DNA of 27,350 nt, taken from assembly GCA_005885025.1 (NCBI GenBank), contig VAYC01000014.1, positions 1-27,350 of the forward strand, written 5' to 3'. Under the pieces are notes generated by a model, which saw nothing but the letters and a program-made list of their open reading frames with translations, was not told where the DNA came from and searched no databases. Source of the DNA: Actinomycetota bacterium (GTDB lineage Bacteria; Actinomycetota; UBA4738). The translations under genes and the position numbers were made by a program. Position 1 is the first letter of the stretch, and each line of letters opens with the position of its first letter. Positions 16,401-27,350 of this stretch are shown here, in pieces.

Positions 16401-17045
16401 ATGCGCCTGGTGCTGCTGGGGCCCCCCGGGGCGGGCAAGGGAACCCAGGCACGGCACCTGGTCGAACGGTTCGGCGCCCCGCTGATCGCCACGGGCGACA
16501 TCTTTCGGTCGAACGTCGCCGAGGGCACCGAGCTCGGCCGACTGGCCAAGGCATACCTCGACGCCGGCGAGCTGGTTCCCGACGAGGTGACCATCGGAAT
16601 GGTGATGCAGGCCATCGATCAGGCCCCCGGCGGGTTCGTCCTGGACGGCTTCCCGCGCAACATCCGGCAGGCGGAGGCGCTGGAGGCAGAGCTTGGGGCC
16701 CGGAACGCGCCATTGTCGGCTGCGTTGGCCTTCCTCGTGGACGAGGAGACCGCTGTGAAGCGCATCGCCGGCCGCCGTACCTGTGCCGACTGCCAGCGTC
16801 CCTACAACGTCTTCTTCGACCCGCCGCGAGCGGAGGGCGTGTGCGACGCGTGCGGTGGGCCACTCCTGCAGAGGACCGACGAGGACGAGCCGACGGTCCG
16901 TCGTCGCCTGGAGGTCTATCGGGAGAGCACCGCGCCTCTCCTCAAGTTCTATTCGGACCGGGGACTGCTCAGGGAGGTCGACGCCGAGGGGACCGAGGCA
17001 GAGGTCACCGAGCGCGTCCTGTCCGCCTTGGCGGACCTGGCTTAG
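16401..17045 (+). CDS. adk: Adenylate kinase with zinc-binding lid
   Basis: GPPGAGKGTQA, LDGFPR and a C-x2-C-x16-C-x2-C lid (16782-16853). Confidence 0.98.
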   Translation: MRLVLLGPPGAGKGTQARHLVERFGAPLIATGDIFRSNVAEGTELGRLAKAYLDAGELVPDEVTIGMVMQAIDQAPGGFVLDGFPRNIRQAEALEAELGARNAPLSAALAFLVDEETAVKRIAGRRTCADCQRPYNVFFDPPRAEGVCDACGGPLLQRTDEDEPTVRRRLEVYRESTAPLLKFYSDRGLLREVDAEGTEAEVTERVLSALADLA

Positions 17046-17058
17046 AGTCGGTGAGACC

Positions 17059-17820
17059 ATGATCATCTTCAAGTCGCCCGAAGAGATAGGCCGGATGCGC
17101 CAGGCCGGGCGTGTCGTCGCGACGACCATCGACCAGCTTCTGGCCGCGGTCCGCCCCGGCCTCACCACCGAGGACCTGGACCGCCTGGCGGAAGAGTTCA
17201 TCCGCGACCAGGGGGCGGTGCCGTCCTTCAAGGGTTACCGAGGTTTCCCCGGGACGATCTGCACCTCGCTCAACCACGAGGTCGTGCACGGAATCCCCAG
17301 TCCCACACGCGCGCTCATTCCTGGCGACGTGCTGAAGCTCGACGTGGGGGCGGTGTGGGACGGCTACCATGCGGACTCGGCCGTCAGCGTGTTCGTGGCC
17401 GGGGCCCCTTCCGAGGAAGCCGAGAAGCTCGTCCGGGCTACGGAGGAGTCACTGGAGGCTGGGATCGCCGCTCTCCGATCGGGGGCCAGGCTGTCGGACG
17501 TCGGCCACGCCGTCCAGCAGGTTGCGGAGGGAGCGGGCTTCAGCTGCGTCCGCGAATACGCCGGCCACGGCGTGGGGCGGGCGCTGCACGAAGACCCTCA
17601 AGTCCCCAACTACGGGGACCCTGGCAGGGGGCCGGTCGTCAAGCCGGGGCTGGTCGTGGCCATCGAGCCGATGGTGAATGTGGGCACGTGGCGAACCCGG
17701 GTGCTGCGTGACCATTGGACGGTGGTCACGGCTGACGGCAGTCTCTCCGCGCATTTCGAACATACCATCGCCGTGACCGAGGACGGGACGGAGGTCCTGA
17801 CGGCTCGTCCGGCGGCCTGA
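17059..17820 (+). CDS. map: Type I methionine aminopeptidase
   Basis: MIIFKS, NHEVVHGIP, DGYHADSA, GHGVG..LHEDP, IEPM and SAHFEHT; start at ATG 17059. Confidence 0.98.
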   Translation: MIIFKSPEEIGRMRQAGRVVATTIDQLLAAVRPGLTTEDLDRLAEEFIRDQGAVPSFKGYRGFPGTICTSLNHEVVHGIPSPTRALIPGDVLKLDVGAVWDGYHADSAVSVFVAGAPSEEAEKLVRATEESLEAGIAALRSGARLSDVGHAVQQVAEGAGFSCVREYAGHGVGRALHEDPQVPNYGDPGRGPVVKPGLVVAIEPMVNVGTWRTRVLRDHWTVVTADGSLSAHFEHTIAVTEDGTEVLTARPAA

Positions 17821-17841
17821 TCGCCCGGCAGGGCAGCGCGC

Positions 17842-19701
17842 TTACGCGGTTCGGAGCGCCGGCCTTCCCGCCGGGACCCAGAATTCCACGGTGGTTCCCC
17901 CTTCGGAGAGGCTTCGGACCTCGCACCTTCCGCCCGCCATCTCCGCCCGCTCTCGCATCGACGTGAGCCCGAGGTGGCCGTCCGTGGACCGCAGCATCTC
18001 GGATGCGCTGATGCCGACGCCATTGTCCTGCACCCGAACGAGGAACCCGCCGTCCCGATCCTCCAGCCGAACCTCGACGCTGGTGGCCTTGGCGTGCTTG
18101 CGGACGTTGATGAGGGCTTCCTGGGCGATGCGATAGAGCGTTACGCGGGTCTCGTCCGATGGTTCACGTCGGAGCCGGCTGTCGACACGAAAATCCATGC
18201 CGGAATCGAGTTCTTTCGCATACTCGACGATGGCGGCGGCGAGTCCCTCCTCGTCGAGGGCCGACGGCCGGAGCTCGAAGATGAGCGTCCTCATGACATC
18301 GACCGCGCTCTGTATCCTTCCCACCGCTTGATCCAGGGACTCCGCGGCGGCTTTGGGATCGAGTGTGTCAAGCCGTCGCCGCAGCATCTCGAGCTGCATC
18401 CCGACCCCGACCATGAGCTGGACGGGGCCGTCGTGCACCTCGCGAGCGATGCGGTGCCTCTCTTCCTCCTCGGCGTTGACCAAGCGAGACAGCAGCCTTC
18501 GCCGCTGCCCGTCCACCACGCGGAGGTCTTCCAGGCTCTCCCTCAGCTCCTGGGTCCGCTTCTGGGCGAACATCTGCATTTCCAGAGCTCGGATCTCCTC
18601 CACCTGCTGCTGGATTTCCTCCAGCAGCCAAGCGTTGTGCAGGGCAAGCGCGGCATGACCAGCGCACTGCTCTACCAAGGTGACGATCCACCGCTTCATG
18701 TTGTCGCCCCTCCCGGGGAACTCCAGGACCAGGATCCCGAGCCGGGAGCCCTTCTCCAGGAAGAGGGGAACGATCAGCAGGTTCCTGGCCCCGGGGAGCA
18801 GCGTGTCCAGGCGCTGATCGGCCTGAGGGTCGAGTCCCCGCACGAGCTGGGTCTGGCGAGAGTTCCAGGCCAGCTCCATCACGTGGTCGAGGCCCTCCCG
18901 GATCTGTCCCGGCGATGCCGAGCCGCGATACGCCATGAGGGAAAGCGCTTCCACTCTTGGAGGCGAGGCCAGGACGGCTCCTCTGGTGAAGCCGAAGACC
19001 TCGGAGAGCCTCGTCAGCAGGGTCACCGGGATCTCCGAGGCCGAGCTGCGCTGGTCGATCTCCGACACGATCCCGGATACTCGCTCGAGGTCGAGCTTGT
19101 GGGTCCGCACCTCGCGCTCGCTGAGGGCGGAGCACGTGGCCGTGCCCAGGGCCACGGCCCAGAGCGCGGCGACGTTCAGCATCGAAACGAGGCGGAAGTT
19201 GTCTCCCCGGCCCGGCAGGGCGGAGAGGATCGTCTCTCGAACCTGCAGGATCCCCGCGCTCTGAGCGTAGAACGCAACGAACAGGAGGATTGAATGCCAC
19301 GCCGCGATCTTCAGGCCGGTGCGATAGGAGGCCAGCAGCGTGACCGCGACCACGTGCACGAACACGAGGAACCGGAGCGGGCTCTGGGCGCCGCCCGTCG
19401 CGTAGCTCACCCACGCCAGGTAGATGCCGTCCACGAGCAACGTCCCGCCGATCACGGGAAGCAGTTGGACCCGCCGCAGACGGCGGGTCAGCTCCGGAAC
19501 CGGGACGAGCAGCAGGTAGGCCCCCGTGGCCGCGCCCACGGCCAGCAGCGAGACGCCTCGGACCTCCGGAGCCAGGGTGCAGACGACGAGAACCACCGAG
19601 GCGAAGCCGATCCGCAGGACGCGCAGGTATTCCATGCGCTCGGCGATGGAGACGAGATCGCCGAAGGTTGGTCTCGCTCTCGAAGGAGCCGACAGGGTCA
19701 C
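17842..19701 (-). CDS. Membrane sensor histidine kinase: multi-TM N-terminus (PilS-like), GAF, HisKA_3 and HATPase
   Basis: H-box EERHRIAREVHDG, N-box EALINVRKHA, DNGVG, GHLGLTSMRER and GGTTV. GAF-like segment ending LLIVPL...LGILVL...AALALHNA. About 5-6 hydrophobic helices at the N-terminus. Confidence 0.92.
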   Translation of the reverse strand: MTLSAPSRARPTFGDLVSIAERMEYLRVLRIGFASVVLVVCTLAPEVRGVSLLAVGAATGAYLLLVPVPELTRRLRRVQLLPVIGGTLLVDGIYLAWVSYATGGAQSPLRFLVFVHVVAVTLLASYRTGLKIAAWHSILLFVAFYAQSAGILQVRETILSALPGRGDNFRLVSMLNVAALWAVALGTATCSALSEREVRTHKLDLERVSGIVSEIDQRSSASEIPVTLLTRLSEVFGFTRGAVLASPPRVEALSLMAYRGSASPGQIREGLDHVMELAWNSRQTQLVRGLDPQADQRLDTLLPGARNLLIVPLFLEKGSRLGILVLEFPGRGDNMKRWIVTLVEQCAGHAALALHNAWLLEEIQQQVEEIRALEMQMFAQKRTQELRESLEDLRVVDGQRRRLLSRLVNAEEEERHRIAREVHDGPVQLMVGVGMQLEMLRRRLDTLDPKAAAESLDQAVGRIQSAVDVMRTLIFELRPSALDEEGLAAAIVEYAKELDSGMDFRVDSRLRREPSDETRVTLYRIAQEALINVRKHAKATSVEVRLEDRDGGFLVRVQDNGVGISASEMLRSTDGHLGLTSMRERAEMAGGRCEVRSLSEGGTTVEFWVPAGRPALRTA

Positions 19702-19702
19702 G

Positions 19703-20335
19703 TCAGGCGAACTTGCGGACGTCCGGCGCGATGGGAGCTGATGCCAACTTGGGGTCCCGGCGGTCGAGTCGGTTCTGCACCATCAGGAACGCGACGACCA
19801 CGAGGGCCAGGGCGAGGGGGAAGGCCACCTGCTTGCCGGCTTCAGCGGCCGCCCCTCCGATCCGGCCGAAGAGGCTCGGCCCATCCGTGGTCCTCTCCGT
19901 GACCGGCCGAGACGAAGCGGGTGCCTGAGTGGAGGCTCCCGTGGTGGTGTCGCGGTTCAGTCCGCCGACCCCTGCAGATGTGGAGGTCGTTGCCGGCCGG
20001 CCGCTCGGAACGGTACCGCCCCCTCCCCGGTGACCGCCGCCGCCGGTAGGTGTTGGGGTTGGCGTTGGGGAAACGATCGGCTTGAGGATTCCGTCGACCA
20101 CATCGGTTGCCTGCTTGACTGCCGCGTCAGCCTTGTCCTTCACGCTGTTGGCGGTGTCGGTGGCGGTCTGCTTCGTTTGGTCGACATTGCAGGTGGGATC
20201 GGTGAGTGGACATTCGGCCAAAGCCACGGGGGCGGACACGGTCAAGCACACTCCGATGAACGCCATGATGACCAGTGATTTCCGAGCCGACTGGCGCGGT
20301 GAGAGCCTATTGCCCCTGAGTCCCTTGCCGTGCAT
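19703..20335 (-). CDS. Secreted, C-terminally membrane-anchored Pro/Thr/Gly-rich protein with DRRDPKL tail (210 aa)
   Basis: ATG at 20335 preceded by GGAGGAGG. Signal peptide ending VALA, CPLTDPTC, PTPTPTPT/GGGG linker, C-terminal TM (FPLALALVVVAFLMV), then QNRLDRRDPKLA. Stop lies 1 nt from the kinase start. Confidence 0.85.
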   Translation of the reverse strand: MHGKGLRGNRLSPRQSARKSLVIMAFIGVCLTVSAPVALAECPLTDPTCNVDQTKQTATDTANSVKDKADAAVKQATDVVDGILKPIVSPTPTPTPTGGGGHRGGGGTVPSGRPATTSTSAGVGGLNRDTTTGASTQAPASSRPVTERTTDGPSLFGRIGGAAAEAGKQVAFPLALALVVVAFLMVQNRLDRRDPKLASAPIAPDVRKFA

Positions 20336-20660
20336 CTGACGACCTCCTCCCGACCCCGATCGCCGATCTACAGCAACACCTAGAACCTGGTATCGACGTC
20401 CCTTCGGATCTGGCGTATCGGCCGTCCCGAGGATGTTGTCCCGCGCTCCCGATGATCCCAAAGTCTGCGAACGGCGTAGCTCGGATCGGTGGCACGCTGC
20501 GTCAGTGGGGGAGACCGCCCCTTCCGGTCGGTGGAGCCTCGCCACGGCGCGGACGGGCCTTCACGGCCGCTTCAGCCACCCGCCAGCTGCGCCGATGCCC
20601 CAATGGCCGGTCCCTGCGGGGCCGGCGCGGGCAGTCAGTGACCGCCAGGAAGGGCCCGAC

Positions 20661-23588
20661 ATGAAGCGCCGAGCGCGAACCCATTCGGGGACGGGACGGC
20701 TGATGGCCGTCCTGGTGGTCCTCGCCATGGTTCCCCTAGGCCTGCTCGCCTACTCGACGGTCCGGCTGTCGACCGGCGCAGTGAACAAGGAGGTACAGGC
20801 GCGGATCCGGTCCTCGGCGTCCCTCTCCGCGGGGGCCATCCAGAAGGAGATGCAGGGTGTGGTTGATCTGGTTGGGTCCTATGCGGAGCGCCCAACCCTG
20901 GTCTCCGCTCTTTCGGACCCGGCCAATTACGACCTCCAACAGATCGAGTTCCAGCTCGCTGATCTGGCGGACGCCCGCCCAGGGATCTCCGCAACCTTCG
21001 TTGCCGACCCCCAGGGGAGGCTGATCGACATCCTCCCACCCACCCCGTCGATCGTGGGGCAGGACTTCTCCTACCGCGATTGGTACCGGGGTCTCACAGG
21101 GATCGGCCGGACCTACGTGTCGACCGGCTACATGAGCCAGGCCACCGGCCATCCGCTGGTCGTCGGCGTGGCCACCTTCGTCCGGGCCTCCGGGGACCAG
21201 GAGGCGCCCGGCCAAACACGGGCCATCTTGGTAGCCGCCTACGGGCTCGAGGAGATCCAGGGGTTCGTGGACAAGTACGAGTCGTCCCAGGGCGTCAGCC
21301 TCACGGTCACGGACCAGCGCGGCAACGTCCTGGCTTCGCCCGGCGGCGGCCAGACTCTGACGTCGCGGGCCACCGATCCACTCGTGGTGGACGCCCTCAA
21401 GGGAAGGTCCGCCGTGACCACCGTTGGGAGGCCCTCGGGCCGGCTCGTCTCCGCCTACGAGCCCGTGCCTGAACTCGGCTGGACGGTGACGGCGAGCGTC
21501 CCGGAGCGGGTGGCCCTGGCGGGCGTCTCCCACCTTCGCTCCGCTGTGTTGCTCGTGGCGGCCATCCTGGCCATGGTGTTGGCAACGGGCCTGCTCCTGC
21601 TGGCACGTGCGCTGCGGGCCCGCGCGCAGGCCGAGGAGGGTCGGGCCCGCCTTGCGGCCATCGTGGAGTCCTCCGAAGACGCGATCATCGGAATCACGCT
21701 CGACGGAATCATCACCAGTTGGAACGTGGGGGCCGAACGCCTCTACTGGTACACCGCCAAAGAAGCTGTTGGCCAGGACATCTCGATCCTCGCCCCGCCC
21801 GACCGGAAGGACGAGGCGTCGCAAAACCTGGAGCGCATCCGGGAAGGTGAGCGGGTCGAGCAATTCGAGACGGTACGCGTGACGAAGGACGGGACGCCGC
21901 GCGATGTCTCGCTCACGAGCTCGTTGGTGCGCGATCGAAAGGGGGAGGTCGTCGGAGCCTCGGTGATCGCCCAGGACATCACCGCGCACAAGCAGATGGA
22001 GGATGCGGTCCGGGAATCCGAACAGAGGTACCGCCTGCTGGTCGAATCGGCTCAGGACATGGTCTTCACCTTGAGCCCGGAGGGCAAGTTCGTCTCACTG
22101 AACGCCGGATTCGAAGCCATGACCGGATGGAAGAGGGAGGACTGGATCGGCAAGGACTTCGGCCCCCTGATCCATCCGGAGGACCTCGAGGCAGCCAAGA
22201 TCCGCGTGGCCCAGATGCGGCTGGGCGAGCGACTCCCTCCCTTCCCGGTGAGGCTCGCGACCAGCTCCGGGGGTTGGCGAACCGCTGAGAGCGTCTCGAG
22301 CCCGCTGGTCACCGACGGCTCTGTCGTGCAGATCGTGGGAATCGTTCGCGACATCACCGAACGCAAACAGGCTGAGGAAGAGCTGCGCCGAGCCAGGAAC
22401 GAGGCCGAGCGCGCCAAGGAGGAGGCCGAGCAGGCGAGGGAAGGAGCCGAGCGCGCCAATCGGGCCAAGAGCGAGTTCCTGTCCCGGATGAGCCACGAGC
22501 TGCGGACACCCCTGAACGCGGTGCTCGGGTTCGGCCAGCTCCTCGAGATGGACAGCCTCAACCAGGAGCAGCACGAGGGCGTGGCTCAGATCCTCAAGGG
22601 CGGCCGACACCTCCTGGATCTGATCAACGAGGTCCTGGACATCGCCCGGATCGAGGTCGGCCGGATCGCGCTCTCCCTCGAGCCGGTGGCGGTGGATGAG
22701 TCCGTGCTCGGCGCGGTCGATCTCATCCGCCCGCTCGCGACAGAGCGTGGGATCCGCCTGGGCACCGAGATCTCGGAGTCGCAGGGGTACGTGACGGCGG
22801 ACCGCCAGCGCCTCAAGCAGGTTCTGTTGAACCTGCTGTCCAACGCCGTGAAGTACAACCGACCGGGGGGCTCAGTCGCCGTTCGATGCGTTCCGGTATC
22901 GGGCGGGCGGGCGCGGGTCGAGGTGGCCGACGACGGCCCCGGCATCGCCCCCGAGTACATGAGCCGGCTGTTCGTTCCTTTCGAGCGCTTGGGGGCCGAG
23001 ACCTCCGGCGTGGAAGGGACGGGCCTGGGCCTGGCCCTCTCCAAGCGCCTCGTCGAGGTCATGGGGGGGACCCTGGAGGTGGAGAGCGCGCCGGGCCGAG
23101 GCAGCACTTTCTCGGTGTCCCTGCCGGCCGCGGAGGGCCCCGAGTCCGGCCTCGAACGGGGCGGCTCGAAGGGCCTCGTGCTCGCCGCCCTGAACGGGGA
23201 GGGCACGATCCTCCACATCGAGGACAATCCGGCCAACCTCAAGCTCATCGAGCGGATCCTGTCGGGAGTGCGCGGGGTGAGGCTGCTCTCCGCGATGCAA
23301 GGGAGCCTCGGACTGGACATGGCCAGGCAGCATCGCCCCGACGTGATCCTGCTCGACCTCAACCTGCCCGACATCCAGGGGCAGGAGGTGCTCGGCCTCC
23401 TGCGCGCCGATCCCCGGACGAGAGACATCCCAGTCCTCGTGGTCAGCGCGGACGCCACCCCCGAGCAGCTTCGAAAGCTCCGGGCGGCCGGGGCCAAGGC
23501 GTACCTCACCAAACCGCTGGACGTTCAGCGCTTCCTCCGTGTAGTGGGCGAGGCCTTGAGCGAACGAAGGCTTGACCATGCGGGCTGA
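20661..23588 (+). CDS. Hybrid sensor kinase: TM-dCache-TM-PAS-PAS-HisKA-HATPase-REC
   Basis: Cache-like DFSYRDWY and VSAYEPV; two PAS repeats ending QDIT and RDIT; FLSRMSHELRTPLNAV; NLLSNAVKYN; EGTGLGL; REC IEDN...LLDLNLP...LTKP. ATG 20661 after AGGAAGG. Confidence 0.95.
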   Translation: MKRRARTHSGTGRLMAVLVVLAMVPLGLLAYSTVRLSTGAVNKEVQARIRSSASLSAGAIQKEMQGVVDLVGSYAERPTLVSALSDPANYDLQQIEFQLADLADARPGISATFVADPQGRLIDILPPTPSIVGQDFSYRDWYRGLTGIGRTYVSTGYMSQATGHPLVVGVATFVRASGDQEAPGQTRAILVAAYGLEEIQGFVDKYESSQGVSLTVTDQRGNVLASPGGGQTLTSRATDPLVVDALKGRSAVTTVGRPSGRLVSAYEPVPELGWTVTASVPERVALAGVSHLRSAVLLVAAILAMVLATGLLLLARALRARAQAEEGRARLAAIVESSEDAIIGITLDGIITSWNVGAERLYWYTAKEAVGQDISILAPPDRKDEASQNLERIREGERVEQFETVRVTKDGTPRDVSLTSSLVRDRKGEVVGASVIAQDITAHKQMEDAVRESEQRYRLLVESAQDMVFTLSPEGKFVSLNAGFEAMTGWKREDWIGKDFGPLIHPEDLEAAKIRVAQMRLGERLPPFPVRLATSSGGWRTAESVSSPLVTDGSVVQIVGIVRDITERKQAEEELRRARNEAERAKEEAEQAREGAERANRAKSEFLSRMSHELRTPLNAVLGFGQLLEMDSLNQEQHEGVAQILKGGRHLLDLINEVLDIARIEVGRIALSLEPVAVDESVLGAVDLIRPLATERGIRLGTEISESQGYVTADRQRLKQVLLNLLSNAVKYNRPGGSVAVRCVPVSGGRARVEVADDGPGIAPEYMSRLFVPFERLGAETSGVEGTGLGLALSKRLVEVMGGTLEVESAPGRGSTFSVSLPAAEGPESGLERGGSKGLVLAALNGEGTILHIEDNPANLKLIERILSGVRGVRLLSAMQGSLGLDMARQHRPDVILLDLNLPDIQGQEVLGLLRADPRTRDIPVLVVSADATPEQLRKLRAAGAKAYLTKPLDVQRFLRVVGEALSERRLDHAG
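22401..22463 (+). repeat. Three imperfect 21-nt repeats encoding heptads before the H-box
   Basis: EAERAKE / EAEQARE / GAERANR. Confidence 0.6.
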
Positions 23589-24204
23589 CGACGAGCTGAC
23601 GCAAGCCCGGATCCTGGTGGTCGATGATCAGGAAGCCAACGTCCGGCTCCTCGAGCGGATCCTCGAGCGCGCCGGGTACACGAACGTGGCCACGACCACG
23701 GACTCGCGCCAGGTCCTCGGCCTGTACGGAGAGCTCGACCCCGACCTCATCGTGCTGGACCTGCTCATGCCCCACATGGACGGGTTCGAAGTGATGGCGG
23801 AGCTGGGAAGGCGTGTCCCCGATGGGACCTACCTCCCCATCCTGGTCCTGACGGCGGACGCCACGCCGCAGGCCCGTCAGCGTGCGCTCTCGATGGGGGC
23901 CCGGGACTTCCTTACGAAGCCGTTCGACCACGACGAGGCGCTGTTGCGGATACGCAACCTCCTCGAGACGAGGTTCCTCCACCTTCGGCTCAAGGACCAG
24001 AACGAGGCCCTGGAGGAGAAGGTCCGCGAGCGGACCGAAGACCTGCAGAGAAGTTTCGAGGCGCTGCACCGGACCGCCGAGCAGCGAAAGACGCTGCTGG
24101 CCCACCTGGCCAAGGTCAATCGACTGGCCATGGCCGGCATGGAGGAGGCCGTGTCCGGCGAACAGGTGATCGGGGACGGGGACGGGGCAGGCGCAGGTGG
24201 CTGA
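23578..24204 (+). CDS. Response regulator: REC domain plus coiled coil, no recognisable output domain
   Basis: ILVVDDQ...IVLDLLMPHMDG...VLTAD...FLTKPF, then the EKVRERT helix. Overlaps the kinase stop. Start at ATG 23578 or TTG 23572. Confidence 0.93.
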   Translation: MRADDELTQARILVVDDQEANVRLLERILERAGYTNVATTTDSRQVLGLYGELDPDLIVLDLLMPHMDGFEVMAELGRRVPDGTYLPILVLTADATPQARQRALSMGARDFLTKPFDHDEALLRIRNLLETRFLHLRLKDQNEALEEKVRERTEDLQRSFEALHRTAEQRKTLLAHLAKVNRLAMAGMEEAVSGEQVIGDGDGAGAGG

Positions 24205-25537
24205 GGGCAACGTGGCCTCCGCCGGATCGGTCGTCGAGCTCGTCGACTGGCTCCGTCAGCTGGCCTCCAGTGAGGGATCAGATCTCCATATCAAGGTGGG
24301 ATCGCCGCCGGCGTTCCGGGAAGGCGGCCAACTGCGTCGGCTAGAACACCCGCCGGTCGGAGGCCAGGAGGTCGAACGGTTGGCCGAGGCTATCGTCCCG
24401 CCCAACCGGAAGGCGCGCTTCGACGAGGAAGGAGAGGTGGACTTTGCCCACACCGTCCCCGGCGTCGGCCGGTTTCGGGCCAACGTCTTCCGGCAGCGGG
24501 GAGGCATCAGCATGGTCTTCCGGAGGCTCCGGACGGGGGGTCCCGGCTTCGAGGAGCTGGGACTCCCTCCGGTGGTCCGGAAGCTGGCCGACGAGGCCCG
24601 TGGCCTGGTCCTGGTCACGGGGCCGACCGGATCGGGGAAGACCACCACGCTCGCGGCCATGATCGAGTACATCAACCGGACCCGGCCGCTCCACGTCGTG
24701 ACCATCGAAGACCCCATCGAGGTCCTTCATAGCGACAAGGTGGCTTGGGTGAACCAGCGCGAAGTCGGCCAGGACTCCAGGAGCTTCCTCACCGCGCTGC
24801 GGGCGGCCCTCCGACAGGACCCCGACGTCATCCTGATCGGGGAGATGAGAGATACGGAGACCGTTCAGGCCGCCCTCCAGGCTGCCGAGACCGGCCATCT
24901 GGTCCTCTCCACGCTGCACACCGTGAACGCCAAGGAAACCGTGAACCGTTTGCTGGATTTTTTCCCTCCGTTTCAACAGCAGCAGATCCGCCTGACGCTG
25001 GCCGGCGCGCTCCGCGGCATCATCTGTCAGCGGCTGGTGCCCGGCACGGCGGGCGGGCGCGTGGTCTGTTTGGAGATCCTCGTCAACACCGGGCGGATCA
25101 CGGAACGGATCGTCAAGCCCGAGATCACCGCCGAGATCGAGGAGGTCATCGCCAAGGGCGAGCACTACGGTATGCGCACGTTCGATCAGTCGCTGCTGGA
25201 GCTGATCACGGTCGGGGACGTGTCGGTCGAGGAGGCGCTGGCGGCGGCCTCGGAGCCCCACGACCTGGAACTCGCCATCCAGCGGGCGGGGATCCCCATG
25301 ACGTCCCGGGGGGTCGGGCTGAGCTTCGAGCGCGACATCAAGCCGCTGTTCTCCGACGACGCCCGGACCCGGATCAACTGGAAGTTCGACTTGTGGGATT
25401 ACGAGAGCGTCAAAGCGAACATCTCCGAGATCCTCAAGCGCATGGAGAACGGCGACAGCCCCTTCGAAGAGGGGTGGACCGAGGACCGGGTGAAGGTCTT
25501 TCGCAGCTGGTTGCGGGAAGGCTTGATGGCCCCGTAG
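24197..25537 (+). CDS. pilT: PilT/PilU-family type IV pilus ATPase with an extra about 79-aa C-terminal domain
   Basis: SDLHIK, RFRANVF, Walker A GPTGSGKTT, TIEDPIE, Walker B ILIGEMRD, His box GHLVLSTLHT and GMRTFDQSL. Confidence 0.88.
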   Translation: MAEGNVASAGSVVELVDWLRQLASSEGSDLHIKVGSPPAFREGGQLRRLEHPPVGGQEVERLAEAIVPPNRKARFDEEGEVDFAHTVPGVGRFRANVFRQRGGISMVFRRLRTGGPGFEELGLPPVVRKLADEARGLVLVTGPTGSGKTTTLAAMIEYINRTRPLHVVTIEDPIEVLHSDKVAWVNQREVGQDSRSFLTALRAALRQDPDVILIGEMRDTETVQAALQAAETGHLVLSTLHTVNAKETVNRLLDFFPPFQQQQIRLTLAGALRGIICQRLVPGTAGGRVVCLEILVNTGRITERIVKPEITAEIEEVIAKGEHYGMRTFDQSLLELITVGDVSVEEALAAASEPHDLELAIQRAGIPMTSRGVGLSFERDIKPLFSDDARTRINWKFDLWDYESVKANISEILKRMENGDSPFEEGWTEDRVKVFRSWLREGLMAP

Positions 25538-25555
25538 GCAGGCCTGAAGCCTGGC

Positions 25556-27064
25556 TCAGGCGCTCCGCCCGTCGGCCTGCTCCAACAGCTCGGTAACGGT
25601 CTCGGCGGCCGCGGGCCGGGCGAAGTAGTACCCCTGGGCCAGCCTGCATCCCAGCGCCAACAGGTGGGCCCGCTGTTCGGCCCGTTCGACGCCCTCGGCC
25701 ACCGTCTCCAGCCCCAGGCTGTGCACCAGGCGGATGATCCCTCGGGCCAGCGTCCACTCCTCGCTCCCGGTGGCCACGCCCGCCACGAAGGATCGGTCGA
25801 TCTTCACCACGTCCACCGGCAATCGGCGCAGGTAGCTCAAGGAAGAGAACCCGATACCGAAGTCGTCGATGGCCAGCCGCACTCCCAGGCCCCTCAGCGC
25901 CCGCAGCACCGAGATCGTCGCTTCGGTGTCCTGCATCAATACGGTCTCGGTGATCTCGAGTGTCAGGCTGGCCGGATCGAGACCGAACGCTTCGACCGCG
26001 GCCCGGACATCCCTCAGCAGATCGGGGTCCTGGAGCTGCCGGGCGGAGATGTTGACGCTGATGGCGAGGGGTTGCTCTGACGGGAACCGCTGCTGCCACG
26101 ACCTCAGTTGCCGGCATGCCTCCGCCGTGACCCATCGATCCATGGCGACGATCAGGCCCGCTTCCTCGGCGAGCGGGATGAAGTCCGCCGGGGAGATCAT
26201 GCCGCGCTCCGGATGCATCCAACGGATGAGGGCCTCCGTGCCGACGATCCGGCCGTCGGTCAGGCGCACGACCGGCTGGTAATGGAGGACGAACTCCCTC
26301 CGTTCGAGAGCTCGCCTGAGCTCGGTCAGGAGCTCGAACCGCTTCAGCAGGGCGACGTGACGATCATGCTGATAGACCTCGTACCGGCGCCTGCCGGCTC
26401 GCTTGGCCGCACCCATCGCGGCGTCCGCGTCGCTCACGATCGACCTGCCGTCTTTGGATCCGTCCGGGAACTGGGTGATGCCGATGCTCGCGTCGACGAA
26501 CACCTCTCTTCCCTGGACCGGGAACGCGGCCCCAAGTCGGTCGAGGACTCGGTCGGCCACCTGCGTCGCCTCCGGGATGCCCGCATCCACGAGCAGCATG
26601 GCGAACTCGTCTCCATCCAAGCGGGCAACCGAGTCCGCGGCCCGCAGGCAGCCACGTAGCCGCTGGCCCACTTCGACCAGGACGCGATCCCCGGCGCTTT
26701 GCCCGAAGGCATCGTTCACGCTGTTGAAGCCGTCGAGGTCAACCACCAGGACGGCGACGGGCCGGCCCCGACGCTTCGTGCCTGCGACAGCATGGTCCAC
26801 GCGGTCGAGGAACAGCGTGCGGTTGGGAAGCTGGGTGAGTGGGTCGTACAGGGCCTGCTGGCGCATCTCCCGCTCGAGTCGCCGGCGGTCCATCCTCGCG
26901 CCTGCCCACACGCCGACCAAGCAGATGCCGAGGAAGGTAACGGCCGCACCTTTGCCCCACCCGCCTGCGGGCCACAGGTAGGAGAGGACGGTCAGGGCAA
27001 CGCCGGCTCCGAGGAACCCGGTGGAGACGCTGGGGCGCAACCGGCGAAGCCCGCGGTCAGCCAT
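25556..27064 (-). CDS. Two-TM GGDEF-EAL protein (degenerate DGDEF, intact EAL); putative c-di-GMP phosphodiesterase
   Basis: YDPLTQLPNR, DLDGFNSVND, RAAD I-site and DGDEF; EAL, VNIS, EITE, DDFGIGFSS, KIDRSF, AEGVE and QGYYF. Confidence 0.93.
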   Translation of the reverse strand: MADRGLRRLRPSVSTGFLGAGVALTVLSYLWPAGGWGKGAAVTFLGICLVGVWAGARMDRRRLEREMRQQALYDPLTQLPNRTLFLDRVDHAVAGTKRRGRPVAVLVVDLDGFNSVNDAFGQSAGDRVLVEVGQRLRGCLRAADSVARLDGDEFAMLLVDAGIPEATQVADRVLDRLGAAFPVQGREVFVDASIGITQFPDGSKDGRSIVSDADAAMGAAKRAGRRRYEVYQHDRHVALLKRFELLTELRRALERREFVLHYQPVVRLTDGRIVGTEALIRWMHPERGMISPADFIPLAEEAGLIVAMDRWVTAEACRQLRSWQQRFPSEQPLAISVNISARQLQDPDLLRDVRAAVEAFGLDPASLTLEITETVLMQDTEATISVLRALRGLGVRLAIDDFGIGFSSLSYLRRLPVDVVKIDRSFVAGVATGSEEWTLARGIIRLVHSLGLETVAEGVERAEQRAHLLALGCRLAQGYYFARPAAAETVTELLEQADGRSA

Positions 27065-27350
27065 CCCTTCCCTTTCCGTCCCCTCCGAGGATCATCCACG
27101 GGAGCCCCAAGCCGGTGACCGTGTCCAGGAGCGTGTCGAACGCCACCGGTTTCACCAGGTAGGAGTTGGCGCCCAGCTCGAACGCCCGATCGATGTCTTC
27201 CGACTCCGAAGAGCCGGAGAGCATGACCACGGGGATACGGTCGAGGTTGGGCTGCTGGCGGAGCCAGGTGAGCAGCTCGAGGCCGGACCTCCCCGGGACG
27301 TGCAGGTCCAGCAGGATGAGAACAGGGAGAGGGAAGTGCGTTCGGTCGGC
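27057..27350 (-). CDS. Single-domain or C-terminal REC response regulator (Rcp1-like), 5'-truncated; missing from the ORF track
   Basis: Manual translation from 27350: ADRTHFPLPVLILLDLHVPGRSGLELLTWLRQQPNLDRIPVVMLSGSSESEDIDRAFELGANSYLVKPVAFDTLLDTVTGLGLPWMILGGDGKGRDG-stop. The stop overlaps the GGDEF-EAL start by 8 nt. Confidence 0.92.
   Translation of the reverse strand, partial: ADRTHFPLPVLILLDLHVPGRSGLELLTWLRQQPNLDRIPVVMLSGSSESEDIDRAFELGANSYLVKPVAFDTLLDTVTGLGLPWMILGGDGKGRDG

What the first reader, a model, noticed from the sequence alone, without database searches (positions are those of the whole stretch)
25298..25537. PilT fused to a heme-less cytochrome-c-like small domain
Seen: the PilT core ends near PHDLELAIQRAGIP. 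An in-frame ATG at 25298 then begins 79 aa: MTSRGVGLSFERDIKPLF...FDLWDYESVKANISEILKRMENGDSPFEEGWTEDRVKVFRSWLREGLMAP. From recall, SFxxDIxPLF...DL..Y..V...I..R...G.MP...W..E.V..F..W...G is a family of small stand-alone or enzyme-fused domains resembling planctomycete-type cytochrome c. Here there is no CxxCH, and the usual MP reads SP. Inference: a read-through fusion of a formerly separate gene, giving a retraction ATPase a possible ligand or redox-sensing appendage. I know of no described PilT with this architecture.
Basis: partly seen in the sequence, partly recalled or inferred. Interest (0 to 1): 0.75.

Follow-up and report, generated by a model that had tools for sequence, protein, structure and literature searches.

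The report
PilT paralog with heme-less cytochrome-c-fold tail
A soil actinobacterial pilus-motor-like ATPase really does carry a conserved extra C-terminal domain from a large, unnamed protein family whose shape resembles cytochrome c but has no heme-attachment site. In this clade the domain has also lost the family's likely ligand residues, so it probably acts as a docking or regulatory piece, not a redox sensor.

Summary
One 446-aa frame (24197-25537, +) joins an intact PilT/PilU-family ATPase (residues 15-356) through a variable linker to a 71-aa domain (376-446).

It is not an assembly artefact:
- The same architecture occurs in about 20 protein clusters from independent JGI, ENA and NCBI assemblies, and in a second species genome.
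- Contigs from three soil studies cross the junction with no stop or indel.
- The tail is as conserved as the PilT N-domain.
- Synteny is kept: map, hybrid kinase, response regulator, PilT-tail, EAL protein, infA.

The tail belongs to a large family with no Pfam or NCBIfam model (414 representatives). Most members are stand-alone 75-130-aa "hypothetical proteins". Others are fused to globin, CDGSH, ferritin-like, tyrosinase-like or copper monooxygenase enzymes.

The fused tails form a single clade that replaced the family's near-invariant Asp, Met, Met and Cys (MPCD became xPFE) and gained an invariant REGLMAP C-terminus. A redox or ligand sensor is therefore less likely than a docking or regulatory module. 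PilU offers a parallel: it also lacks AIRNLIRE and has a C-terminal extension.

This is a new variant of a known kind, of moderate interest.

The parts
24197..25537 (+). Whole gene: PilT-family ATPase with C-terminal domain, 446 aa, GTG start overlapping the upstream regulator's stop by 8 nt
   Evidence: Open frame. About 20 homologous clusters share the architecture, most of them around 446 aa.
24239..25264 (+). PilT/PilU ATPase core (residues 15-356). Walker A GPTGSGKT is at 24620-24643, the Asp box EDPIE at 24707-24721, Walker B DPDVILIGEMRD at 24818-24853 and the His box TGHLVLSTLHT at 24890-24922.
   Evidence: TIGR01420 E 9.6e-133, above its cut-off. T2SSE Pfam match. Motif positions.
25091..25114 (+). 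GRITERIV at the position where canonical PilT has AIRNLIRE
   Evidence: Alignment with the genome's own canonical PilT (contig C138, next to PilB), which reads AIRNLIRE.
25265..25318 (+). Variable linker (residues 357-374), including the internal Met368 (ATG 25298-25300)
   Evidence: Linker (measured over 357-375) identity is 21-89% across fusions, against 55-87% for the tail. Met368 is not conserved. The unfused paralog on C68 ends about 10 residues after PHD.
25319..25534 (+). C-terminal domain (residues 375-446) of the unnamed 'FxxDIKPLF...FDLW...MPCD...W' family; five short helices with a cytochrome-c-like fold
   Evidence: Family search, alignment A1, AF2 model at pLDDT 80, fold matches.
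25457..25468 (+). SPFE, replacing the family's MPCD motif (Met 98%, Cys 92%, Asp 88% in stand-alone members)
   Evidence: Column statistics of fused against stand-alone rows and motif counts.
25514..25534 (+). REGLMAP, a C-terminal end that is near-invariant only in the PilT-fused clade
20433..23588 (+). Hybrid sensor kinase (dCache, PAS x2-3, HisKA, HATPase_c, REC), first gene of the operon. The true start is probably downstream of 20433.
   Evidence: Pfam. The same gene sits upstream of the fusion in L024-L026, L028 and G023.
23572..24204 (+). Response regulator (REC plus a coiled-coil-like tail of about 80 aa, no recognised output domain). It overlaps both neighbouring genes.
   Evidence: Pfam. 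Conserved upstream neighbour.
25556..27064 (-). Convergent GGDEF-EAL protein (c-di-GMP turnover)
   Evidence: Pfam. An EAL-domain protein flanks the fusion in four of the five architectures read; L028 ends before it could be seen.
27057..27350 (-). Response-regulator receiver gene upstream of the GGDEF-EAL gene, cut by the window end
   Evidence: Pfam. Same arrangement in L024-L026.

Best explanation
The gene encodes an accessory PilT-family hexameric ATPase. It is a paralog of the genome's canonical PilT, has intact ATPase boxes and lacks the AIRNLIRE motif. In one soil actinobacterial lineage this paralog acquired, once, a C-terminal copy of a widespread cytoplasmic small domain.

That domain has a cytochrome-c-like fold but no covalent heme site. 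In most of its family it keeps a near-invariant Asp...Met...Met-Pro-Cys-Asp set and travels with oxygen, iron or copper redox enzymes.

In the PilT clade those residues were replaced (Ala/Gln, Ile/Leu/Met, Ser/Thr/Val, Phe, Glu). A new conserved surface appeared, including the REGLMAP end.

Shown: the fusion, its conservation, its single origin, the fold resemblance, the residue switch and the conserved phosphorelay / c-di-GMP neighbourhood.

Inferred: the tail no longer binds the family's usual ligand. It instead serves as a tethered protein-docking or autoregulatory module. Through it the motor would be coupled to a partner: the canonical PilT or the pilus platform, as PilU's C-terminal extension is; or the neighbouring regulator or EAL proteins. 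The adjacent kinase and regulator would control it.
For: Fusion is real and old:
- About 20 clusters share the architecture, with tail identity of 55-86%.
- A second species genome, G023, has the same gene order.
- Contigs from three soil studies bridge the junction.
- The tail is conserved like the N-domain and far better than the linker.
- Fused tails are one side of a branch (support 96/74; 98% of bootstrap trees).

Family and fold:
- 414 representatives, with no Pfam or NCBIfam model.
- Partners are Bac_globin, zf-CDGSH, Fer4_19, Ferritin-like, Haem_oxygenas_2, LodA_C, Cu2_monoox and tyrosinase-like AsqI.

Residue switch:
- D389, M393, D404, G419, M421, C423 and D424 are 85-98% conserved in stand-alone members and replaced in the fused clade (C became F in 100%).
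- Fused-specific conserved positions are L375, R379, W395, D401, G426, S437, R440, E441 and LMAP.

Paralog status:
- The genome has PilB plus an AIRNLIRE-bearing PilT on contig C138.
- It also has an unfused 61%-identical paralog on C68 that ends where the linker begins.

Analogy: PilU is described as lacking AIRNLIRE and having an extended C-terminus that contacts PilT (bioRxiv 10.1101/2025.10.30.685630).

Context: the gene overlaps the upstream genes in series, and EAL proteins are nearby in four of five architectures.
Against: - No partner has been identified, and no direct evidence of docking exists.
- Foldseek against PDB found nothing.
- Profile comparison with Cytochrome_CBB3 domains was insignificant.
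- Loss of Met and Cys does not exclude binding of a different ligand in the former heme pocket.
- The kinase and regulator are absent upstream in two of five contexts (L023, L027), so their link to the tail is not obligatory.
- No pilus gene is in the window, so a pilus role for this paralog is itself an inference.
Confidence: 0.5

Rival explanations
1. Redox or ligand sensor. The tail still binds a small molecule or cofactor, such as non-covalent heme or a metal, in the former heme pocket. It passes redox or oxygen state to the ATPase.
For: The family is repeatedly fused to redox, oxygen or metal enzymes. The fold is cytochrome-c-like. Some fused members keep Met at position 393 (40%). The gene sits in a sensory island.
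Against: The best candidate ligand residues of the family (Met421 98%, Cys423 92%, Asp389 96%, Met393 98%) are specifically replaced in the fused clade, with Phe fixed at 423. There is no CxxCH. The upstream kinase already carries dCache and PAS sensor domains.
Confidence: 0.2
2. Assembly or annotation artefact. Two separate genes (pilT and a small 'MPCD'-family gene starting at ATG 25298) were joined by a lost stop or a chimeric contig.
For: An in-frame ATG sits at the junction. The same genome has a stand-alone copy of the family (C342, 78 aa). Stand-alone genes are the commonest form.
Against: The fusion is present in about 20 clusters from independent assemblies, and in G023, with the same length and synteny. 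Contigs from three studies cross the junction without a stop. The ATG is Leu or another residue in variants. The two apparent 'stand-alone' close hits, P0022 and P0023, are fragments that still carry the PilT C-terminus.
Confidence: 0.02
3. Neutral or decaying appendage. The domain was captured once and is being lost; it has no function in the PilT clade.
For: The family's hallmark residues have been lost. The fusion was found in only 2 of 61 related species genomes searched.
Against: Tail identity of 55-87% equals that of the PilT N-domain, while the linker drifts to 21%. Core hydrophobic positions are kept (F377, D380, F385, F397, D398, I412, P422, W438, G442). New clade-specific invariant positions have appeared, including the last seven residues. 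No truncations or frameshifts were seen among the full-length members fetched.
Confidence: 0.08
4. The cytochrome-c resemblance is coincidental. The tail is simply a small five-helix domain of a fold of its own.
Against: With the stand-alone model the top three of 48,161 chains, and with the tail model the top two, are c-type cytochromes standing 1-2.7 Z units above the next unrelated row. Several AFDB clusters named 'Cytochrome c domain-containing protein' match with TM 0.6-0.78. The Atlas lists a Cytochrom_C-bearing cluster. The order of elements is the same as in class I cytochromes: N-helix, a Gly-x-Met-Pro loop, then a C-helix with an aromatic residue.
Confidence: 0.25

Closest known systems
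PilU (accessory PilT-dependent retraction ATPase of type IVa pili)
   Same: It is a PilT paralog with intact ATPase boxes, lacks AIRNLIRE, has extra C-terminal sequence absent from PilT, and coexists with a canonical PilT (PilU features as described in bioRxiv 10.1101/2025.10.30.685630).
   Different: PilU's extension is described as a stretch that wraps around PilT. Here the addition is a 71-aa globular domain of an independent family. The gene lies in a phosphorelay / c-di-GMP island inside the ribosomal-protein gene region, not beside pilT. Orthology to PilU was not tested.
Class I c-type cytochromes (PccH 4RLR, FoxE 5MAB, YhjA 9QDT)
   Different: No CxxCH occurs anywhere in the family. The proteins are cytoplasmic and lack signal peptides, whereas c-type cytochromes mature outside the cytoplasm (established knowledge). 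No significant sequence or profile similarity was found. The PilT clade also lacks the Met of the MP loop.
C-terminal domain of the fungal cyclopenases AsqI and PenL (PDB 5YY2/5YY3)
   Same: This is the only relative with a solved structure. The family profile matches AsqI residues 653-718 (E 1e-6 to 8e-6). The AFDB models of AsqI and PenL match with TM 0.70-0.75.
   Different: It is attached to a hemocyanin-like zinc enzyme, not an ATPase. It keeps the Met (MPLQ). The paper that reports the structure does not discuss this domain (PMC6053404).
TfcP, the non-canonical cytochrome c needed for type IVa pilus formation in Myxococcus xanthus (PMC8833165)
   Same: It is a cytochrome-c-type protein linked to type IV pili (title and abstract).
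   Different: According to that paper TfcP acts through PilY1, which sits with the minor pilins at the pilus tip, not through a cytoplasmic motor. It is called a cytochrome c, whereas the tail has no heme site. No homology was tested; the parallel is thematic only.

Membership tests
PilT/PilU family type IVa pilus ATPase (TIGR01420) | Score above the curated cut-off over the full model | tested here: met
   442.6 bits against a cut-off of 319.1, model positions 2-343, residues 15-356.
PilT/PilU family type IVa pilus ATPase (TIGR01420) | Walker A, Asp box, Walker B and His box intact | tested here: met
   GPTGSGKT, EDPIE, DPDVILIGEMRD and TGHLVLSTLHT are present and invariant against the paralogs.
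Canonical PilT (retraction motor that engages the platform) | AIRNLIRE motif | tested here: not met
   It reads GRITERIV at 299-306, while the genome's PilT next to PilB reads AIRNLIRE.
Canonical PilT (retraction motor that engages the platform) | Genomic linkage to pilB, pilC or pilin genes | tested here: not met
   None was seen among the window ORFs scanned or in five related contexts. PilB-PilT lies on another contig, C138.
PilU | Orthology to characterised PilU, and dependence on PilT | not tested
   Only the shared traits (no AIRNLIRE, C-terminal addition) were seen. No tree with characterised PilU was built.
c-type cytochrome (class I; Pfam Cytochrom_C, Cytochrome_CBB3, PSCyt1) | CxxCH covalent heme-attachment motif | tested here: not met
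   Absent from the tail and from all 172 family proteins fetched.
c-type cytochrome (class I; Pfam Cytochrom_C, Cytochrome_CBB3, PSCyt1) | Distal Met ligand in a Met-Pro loop before the C-terminal helix | tested here: not met
   SPFE in this protein. The fused clade has S/V/T/P/L at this position, while stand-alone relatives have Met in 98%. Structural equivalence to the axial Met was not verified.
c-type cytochrome (class I; Pfam Cytochrom_C, Cytochrome_CBB3, PSCyt1) | Sequence or profile match to the family models | tested here: not met
   No cytochrome family at E<=10 for 64 members. PSCyt1 has no match in the genome at E<=1. hhalign against 28 Cytochrome_CBB3 domains gives probability 1.6%.
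c-type cytochrome (class I; Pfam Cytochrom_C, Cytochrome_CBB3, PSCyt1) | Cytochrome c fold | tested here: inconclusive
Unnamed 'FxxDIKPLF...FDLW...MPCD...W...G' small-domain family (no Pfam or NCBIfam model) | Significant sequence match across the whole domain and shared core positions | tested here: met
   E down to 1e-15 against stand-alone members. F377, D380, F385, F397, D398, I412, P422, W438 and G442 are shared.
Unnamed 'FxxDIKPLF...FDLW...MPCD...W...G' small-domain family (no Pfam or NCBIfam model) | Near-invariant Asp/Met/Met-Pro-Cys-Asp set | tested here: not met
   A389, I393, S421, F423 and E424 in this protein; the set is lost throughout the fused clade. It is a divergent subfamily.

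The most novel reading that the evidence does not exclude
The 'MPCD' family is an unrecognised class of cytoplasmic proteins with a cytochrome-c fold. They bind a cofactor non-covalently (heme b or a metal, through Met/Met/Cys) and serve as electron-transfer or redox-sensing partners of oxygen, iron or copper enzymes. In the PilT clade, a remodelled copy would make a type IV pilus motor, or a PilT-like ATPase repurposed as a signalling output, respond to cellular redox state together with the adjacent phosphorelay and c-di-GMP enzymes.
Probability: 0.12. Interest if true: 0.8.

Novelty: new variant of a known kind. Interest (0 to 1): 0.5.

Why it matters
PilT-family motors are usually described as two-domain proteins. 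How accessory paralogs are recruited and regulated is an open topic, and recent work points to C-terminal additions (PilU). This is a naturally conserved PilT paralog with a folded C-terminal module, embedded in a kinase / regulator / c-di-GMP island, so it gives a concrete case to test motor regulation in Actinomycetota.

Separately, the tail draws attention to a large family with no model in Pfam or NCBIfam. It has hundreds of clusters across bacteria, some members that look eukaryotic, and the fungal cyclopenases. It has a cytochrome-c-like shape, no heme site and a striking Met-Pro-Cys-Asp motif, and it is repeatedly attached to redox enzymes. Its function is unknown, and one relative is already in the PDB without comment.

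Tried and rejected
- Complex prediction of the PilT core (1-361) with the tail (362-446) gave no verdict (score 0.00). It says nothing either way.
- Foldseek against PDB found nothing at E<=0.001 for either model.
- The pdb_via second look had only 3 chains to examine and was uninformative.
- Pfam and NCBIfam found no model for the tail or for 64 relatives.
- The feature search of the ESM Atlas returned only unnamed clusters, with scores below 0.9.
- Searching for stand-alone close relatives of the tail returned only two fragments of PilT fusions.
- The PSCyt1 model against the own genome gave no match (genome 89.6% complete).
- hhalign of the family against 28 Cytochrome_CBB3 domains from related genomes was not significant. 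G032 was excluded.
- The AsqI paper does not mention the C-terminal domain.
- I could not obtain model coordinates. So I could not check whether the family's conserved residues line the pocket equivalent to the heme site.

Full report
**Observation**

The window has one open frame, 24197-25537 on the + strand, encoding 446 aa.
- Residues 15-356 match the PilT/PilU model TIGR01420 end to end (442.6 bits, cut-off 319.1) and Pfam T2SSE.
- Walker A, the Asp box, Walker B and the His box are intact.
- The core ends at ...EPHDLELAIQRAGIP.
- The tail has no CxxCH, and it reads SPFE where its relatives read MPCD.

**Is the fusion real?** Yes.
- A search restricted to residues 362-446, but with full-length candidates, found 20 clusters. 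Their tails are 55-86% identical and most proteins are about 446 aa. They come from JGI, ENA and NCBI assemblies and are annotated only as PilT (names).
- Two short "stand-alone" near-identical hits turned out to be fragments that still carry the end of PilT.
- Among 61 related species genomes, the fused form was found in the window's genome and in one other genus, G023. G023 has the same gene order.
- Logan contigs from three soil studies cover the junction with no difference, stop or indel. A co-occurring strain variant has CTC (Leu) instead of the ATG. One of these runs may be the source sample.
- Across 14 full-length fusions the tail is 55-87% identical to this one, the PilT N-domain 66-84%, the ATPase domain 77-94% and the linker only 21-89%.

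The tail is therefore a selected domain joined by a drifting linker, not a read-through accident.

**What the tail is**

A full scan of 1.84 billion representatives with residues 362-446 gave 414 proteins at E<=1e-3.
- Most are 70-135-aa proteins named "hypothetical protein".
- Others carry the domain at the end of larger proteins. Partner domains found:
  - Ferritin-like (PF12902), zf-CDGSH with Fer4_19, Bac_globin, Haem_oxygenas_2 and LodA_C;
  - an M10 peptidase and a BNR protein;
  - by structure search, MoaF-like, Cu2_monoox and tyrosinase-family proteins.
- Some members look secreted and repeat the domain several times (P0024, P0043, P0085).
- No Pfam or NCBIfam model matches the tail or 64 relatives.
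- The only solved relative is the C-terminal region of the fungal cyclopenase AsqI (5YY2, residues 653-718, E 1e-6). The paper reporting it does not discuss this region.
- The family consensus is sFerDIKPLFRexDRxsMxxaFDLWsYdDVxxnAxxIlxRLxxGsMPCDgxWPxxxVxxFrxWxxxG.
- The window's genome also has one stand-alone member with MPCD. It is 78 aa and lies on contig C342, downstream of a gene that looks by eye like a Rieske/FAD-type reductase; I did not run that gene through Pfam.

**Fold**

An AF2 model of the tail (pLDDT 80) and a separate model of the genome's stand-alone paralog (pLDDT 84) both give five short helices.

| Match, exhaustive comparison with 48,161 PDB representatives | Tail model | Stand-alone model |
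|---|---|---|

- All three named matches are c-type cytochromes.
- In AFDB clusters, after the family's own members come several "Cytochrome c domain-containing" clusters (TM 0.6-0.78).

I therefore accept "cytochrome-c-like fold, heme-attachment-less" as the best structural description, at about 70% confidence. I do not file the domain in any cytochrome family.

PilT is cytoplasmic, and the stand-alone members I read have no obvious signal peptide. From established knowledge, covalent heme attachment happens outside the cytoplasm. A cytoplasmic cytochrome-c-fold domain without CxxCH is consistent with that.

**What is special about the PilT copies**

- In a maximum-likelihood tree of 64 domains, the 15 PilT-attached tails are one side of a branch (support 96/74; 98% of bootstrap trees). 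This fits a single fusion event.
- Column statistics show the fused clade has replaced the positions most conserved in stand-alone members:
  - Asp389 (96%) became Q/A/V/E.
  - Met393 (98%) became M/L/I/A/V.
  - Asp404 (86%) became S/N.
  - Gly419 (94%) is lost.
  - Met421 (98%) became S/V/T/P/L.
  - Cys423 (92%) became Phe in all fused members.
  - Asp424 became Glu.
- The hydrophobic core positions are kept.
- New clade-specific conserved positions appear: L375, R379, W395, D401, G426, S437, R440, E441 and the terminal LMAP.

Whatever the Met/Met/Cys/Asp set binds in the family, the PilT clade has given it up and evolved a different surface.

**The ATPase and its surroundings**

- The genome is a soil MAG: 2.5 Mb, 415 contigs, 89.6% complete.
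- It has four PilT-family genes above the cut-off:
  - a canonical one with AIRNLIRE next to PilB on contig C138;
  - an unfused paralog on C68, 61% identical to this core, which ends about 10 residues after PHD;
  - a partial copy on C73;
  - this one.
- This gene and the C68 paralog read GRITERIV and GRVVDRII in place of AIRNLIRE.
- The gene is the third of three overlapping genes: a hybrid kinase with dCache and PAS domains, a receiver protein with a coiled-coil-like tail, then the ATPase. A convergent GGDEF-EAL gene and its receiver gene follow.
- In five other contexts the fusion lies at the same place, between map and infA in the ribosomal-protein gene region.
  - It has the kinase and regulator upstream in three architectures (plus G023) and lacks them in two.
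  - It has an EAL-domain protein next to it in four; the fifth contig ends too early to tell.
- No pilus gene is nearby.

**Mechanism**

Shown:
- an intact PilT-type ATPase paralog without AIRNLIRE;
- a selected, single-origin C-terminal domain with a remodelled surface;
- a conserved sensory and c-di-GMP neighbourhood.

Inferred:
- The tail is a tethered docking or autoregulatory module, not a cofactor-binding sensor.
- The closest parallel is PilU. A recent preprint reports that PilU lacks AIRNLIRE and has an extended C-terminus that contacts PilT, and that this contact is needed for the two motors to work together (10.1101/2025.10.30.685630).
- My one complex prediction (core with tail) gave no verdict.
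- The sensor reading remains possible (about 20%), because a pocket could bind something else.

**Novelty**

I found no description of this architecture or of the domain family in three literature searches, and sources annotate the protein as plain PilT. It is a new variant of a known kind of protein. The unnamed domain family is arguably the more interesting by-product.

**Data restrictions**

Claims about G023 rest on a genome that was not flagged as unpublished. G018 and G032 were flagged unpublished. Nothing in this report depends on them beyond their counts in the tallies.

Noticed in passing
G000 contig C342:12924-13151 (locus L009:1498-1734, +): A stand-alone 78-aa member of the same domain family, with the full MPCD motif. 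It lies immediately downstream of a gene that looks by eye like a Rieske/FAD-dependent reductase (no Pfam run), giving the family another apparent redox neighbour.
   Followed up: partly
window 17842-19701 (-): A histidine kinase with a PilS-like six-helix membrane domain (PF25323, E 1.3e-6) plus HisKA_3 and HATPase_c. It sits between map and the hybrid kinase. It is absent from the related contexts read (L023-L028), so it appears to be an extra insertion in this genome.
   Followed up: no
window 16783-27350 and loci L023-L028: A signalling island (kinases, receivers, the PilT paralog, GGDEF/EAL proteins) is inserted between map and infA in the otherwise conserved ribosomal-protein / secY / adk / map gene region. 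Its content varies between relatives.
   Followed up: partly
window 23572-24204 (+): The response regulator has no recognised output domain. Its C-terminal ~80 residues look coiled-coil-like and end in a Gly/Asp/Ala-rich tail that overlaps the start of the ATPase gene.
   Followed up: no
proteins P0024, P0043, P0085, P0135: Some family members appear to have signal peptides, extra conserved cysteines and 2-5 tandem copies of the domain, and look eukaryotic or secreted. This suggests an extracytoplasmic branch of the family.
   Followed up: no
PDB 5YY2/5YY3 (AsqI), residues about 653-718: The only solved structure containing a relative of this domain. The publication reporting it does not comment on this C-terminal region.
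   Followed up: partly
window 20433-20660 (+): The first ~76 codons of the long kinase ORF look non-coding (Arg/Pro/Ser-rich). A more plausible start is the Met before KRRARTH, just ahead of what looks like a membrane helix.
   Followed up: no
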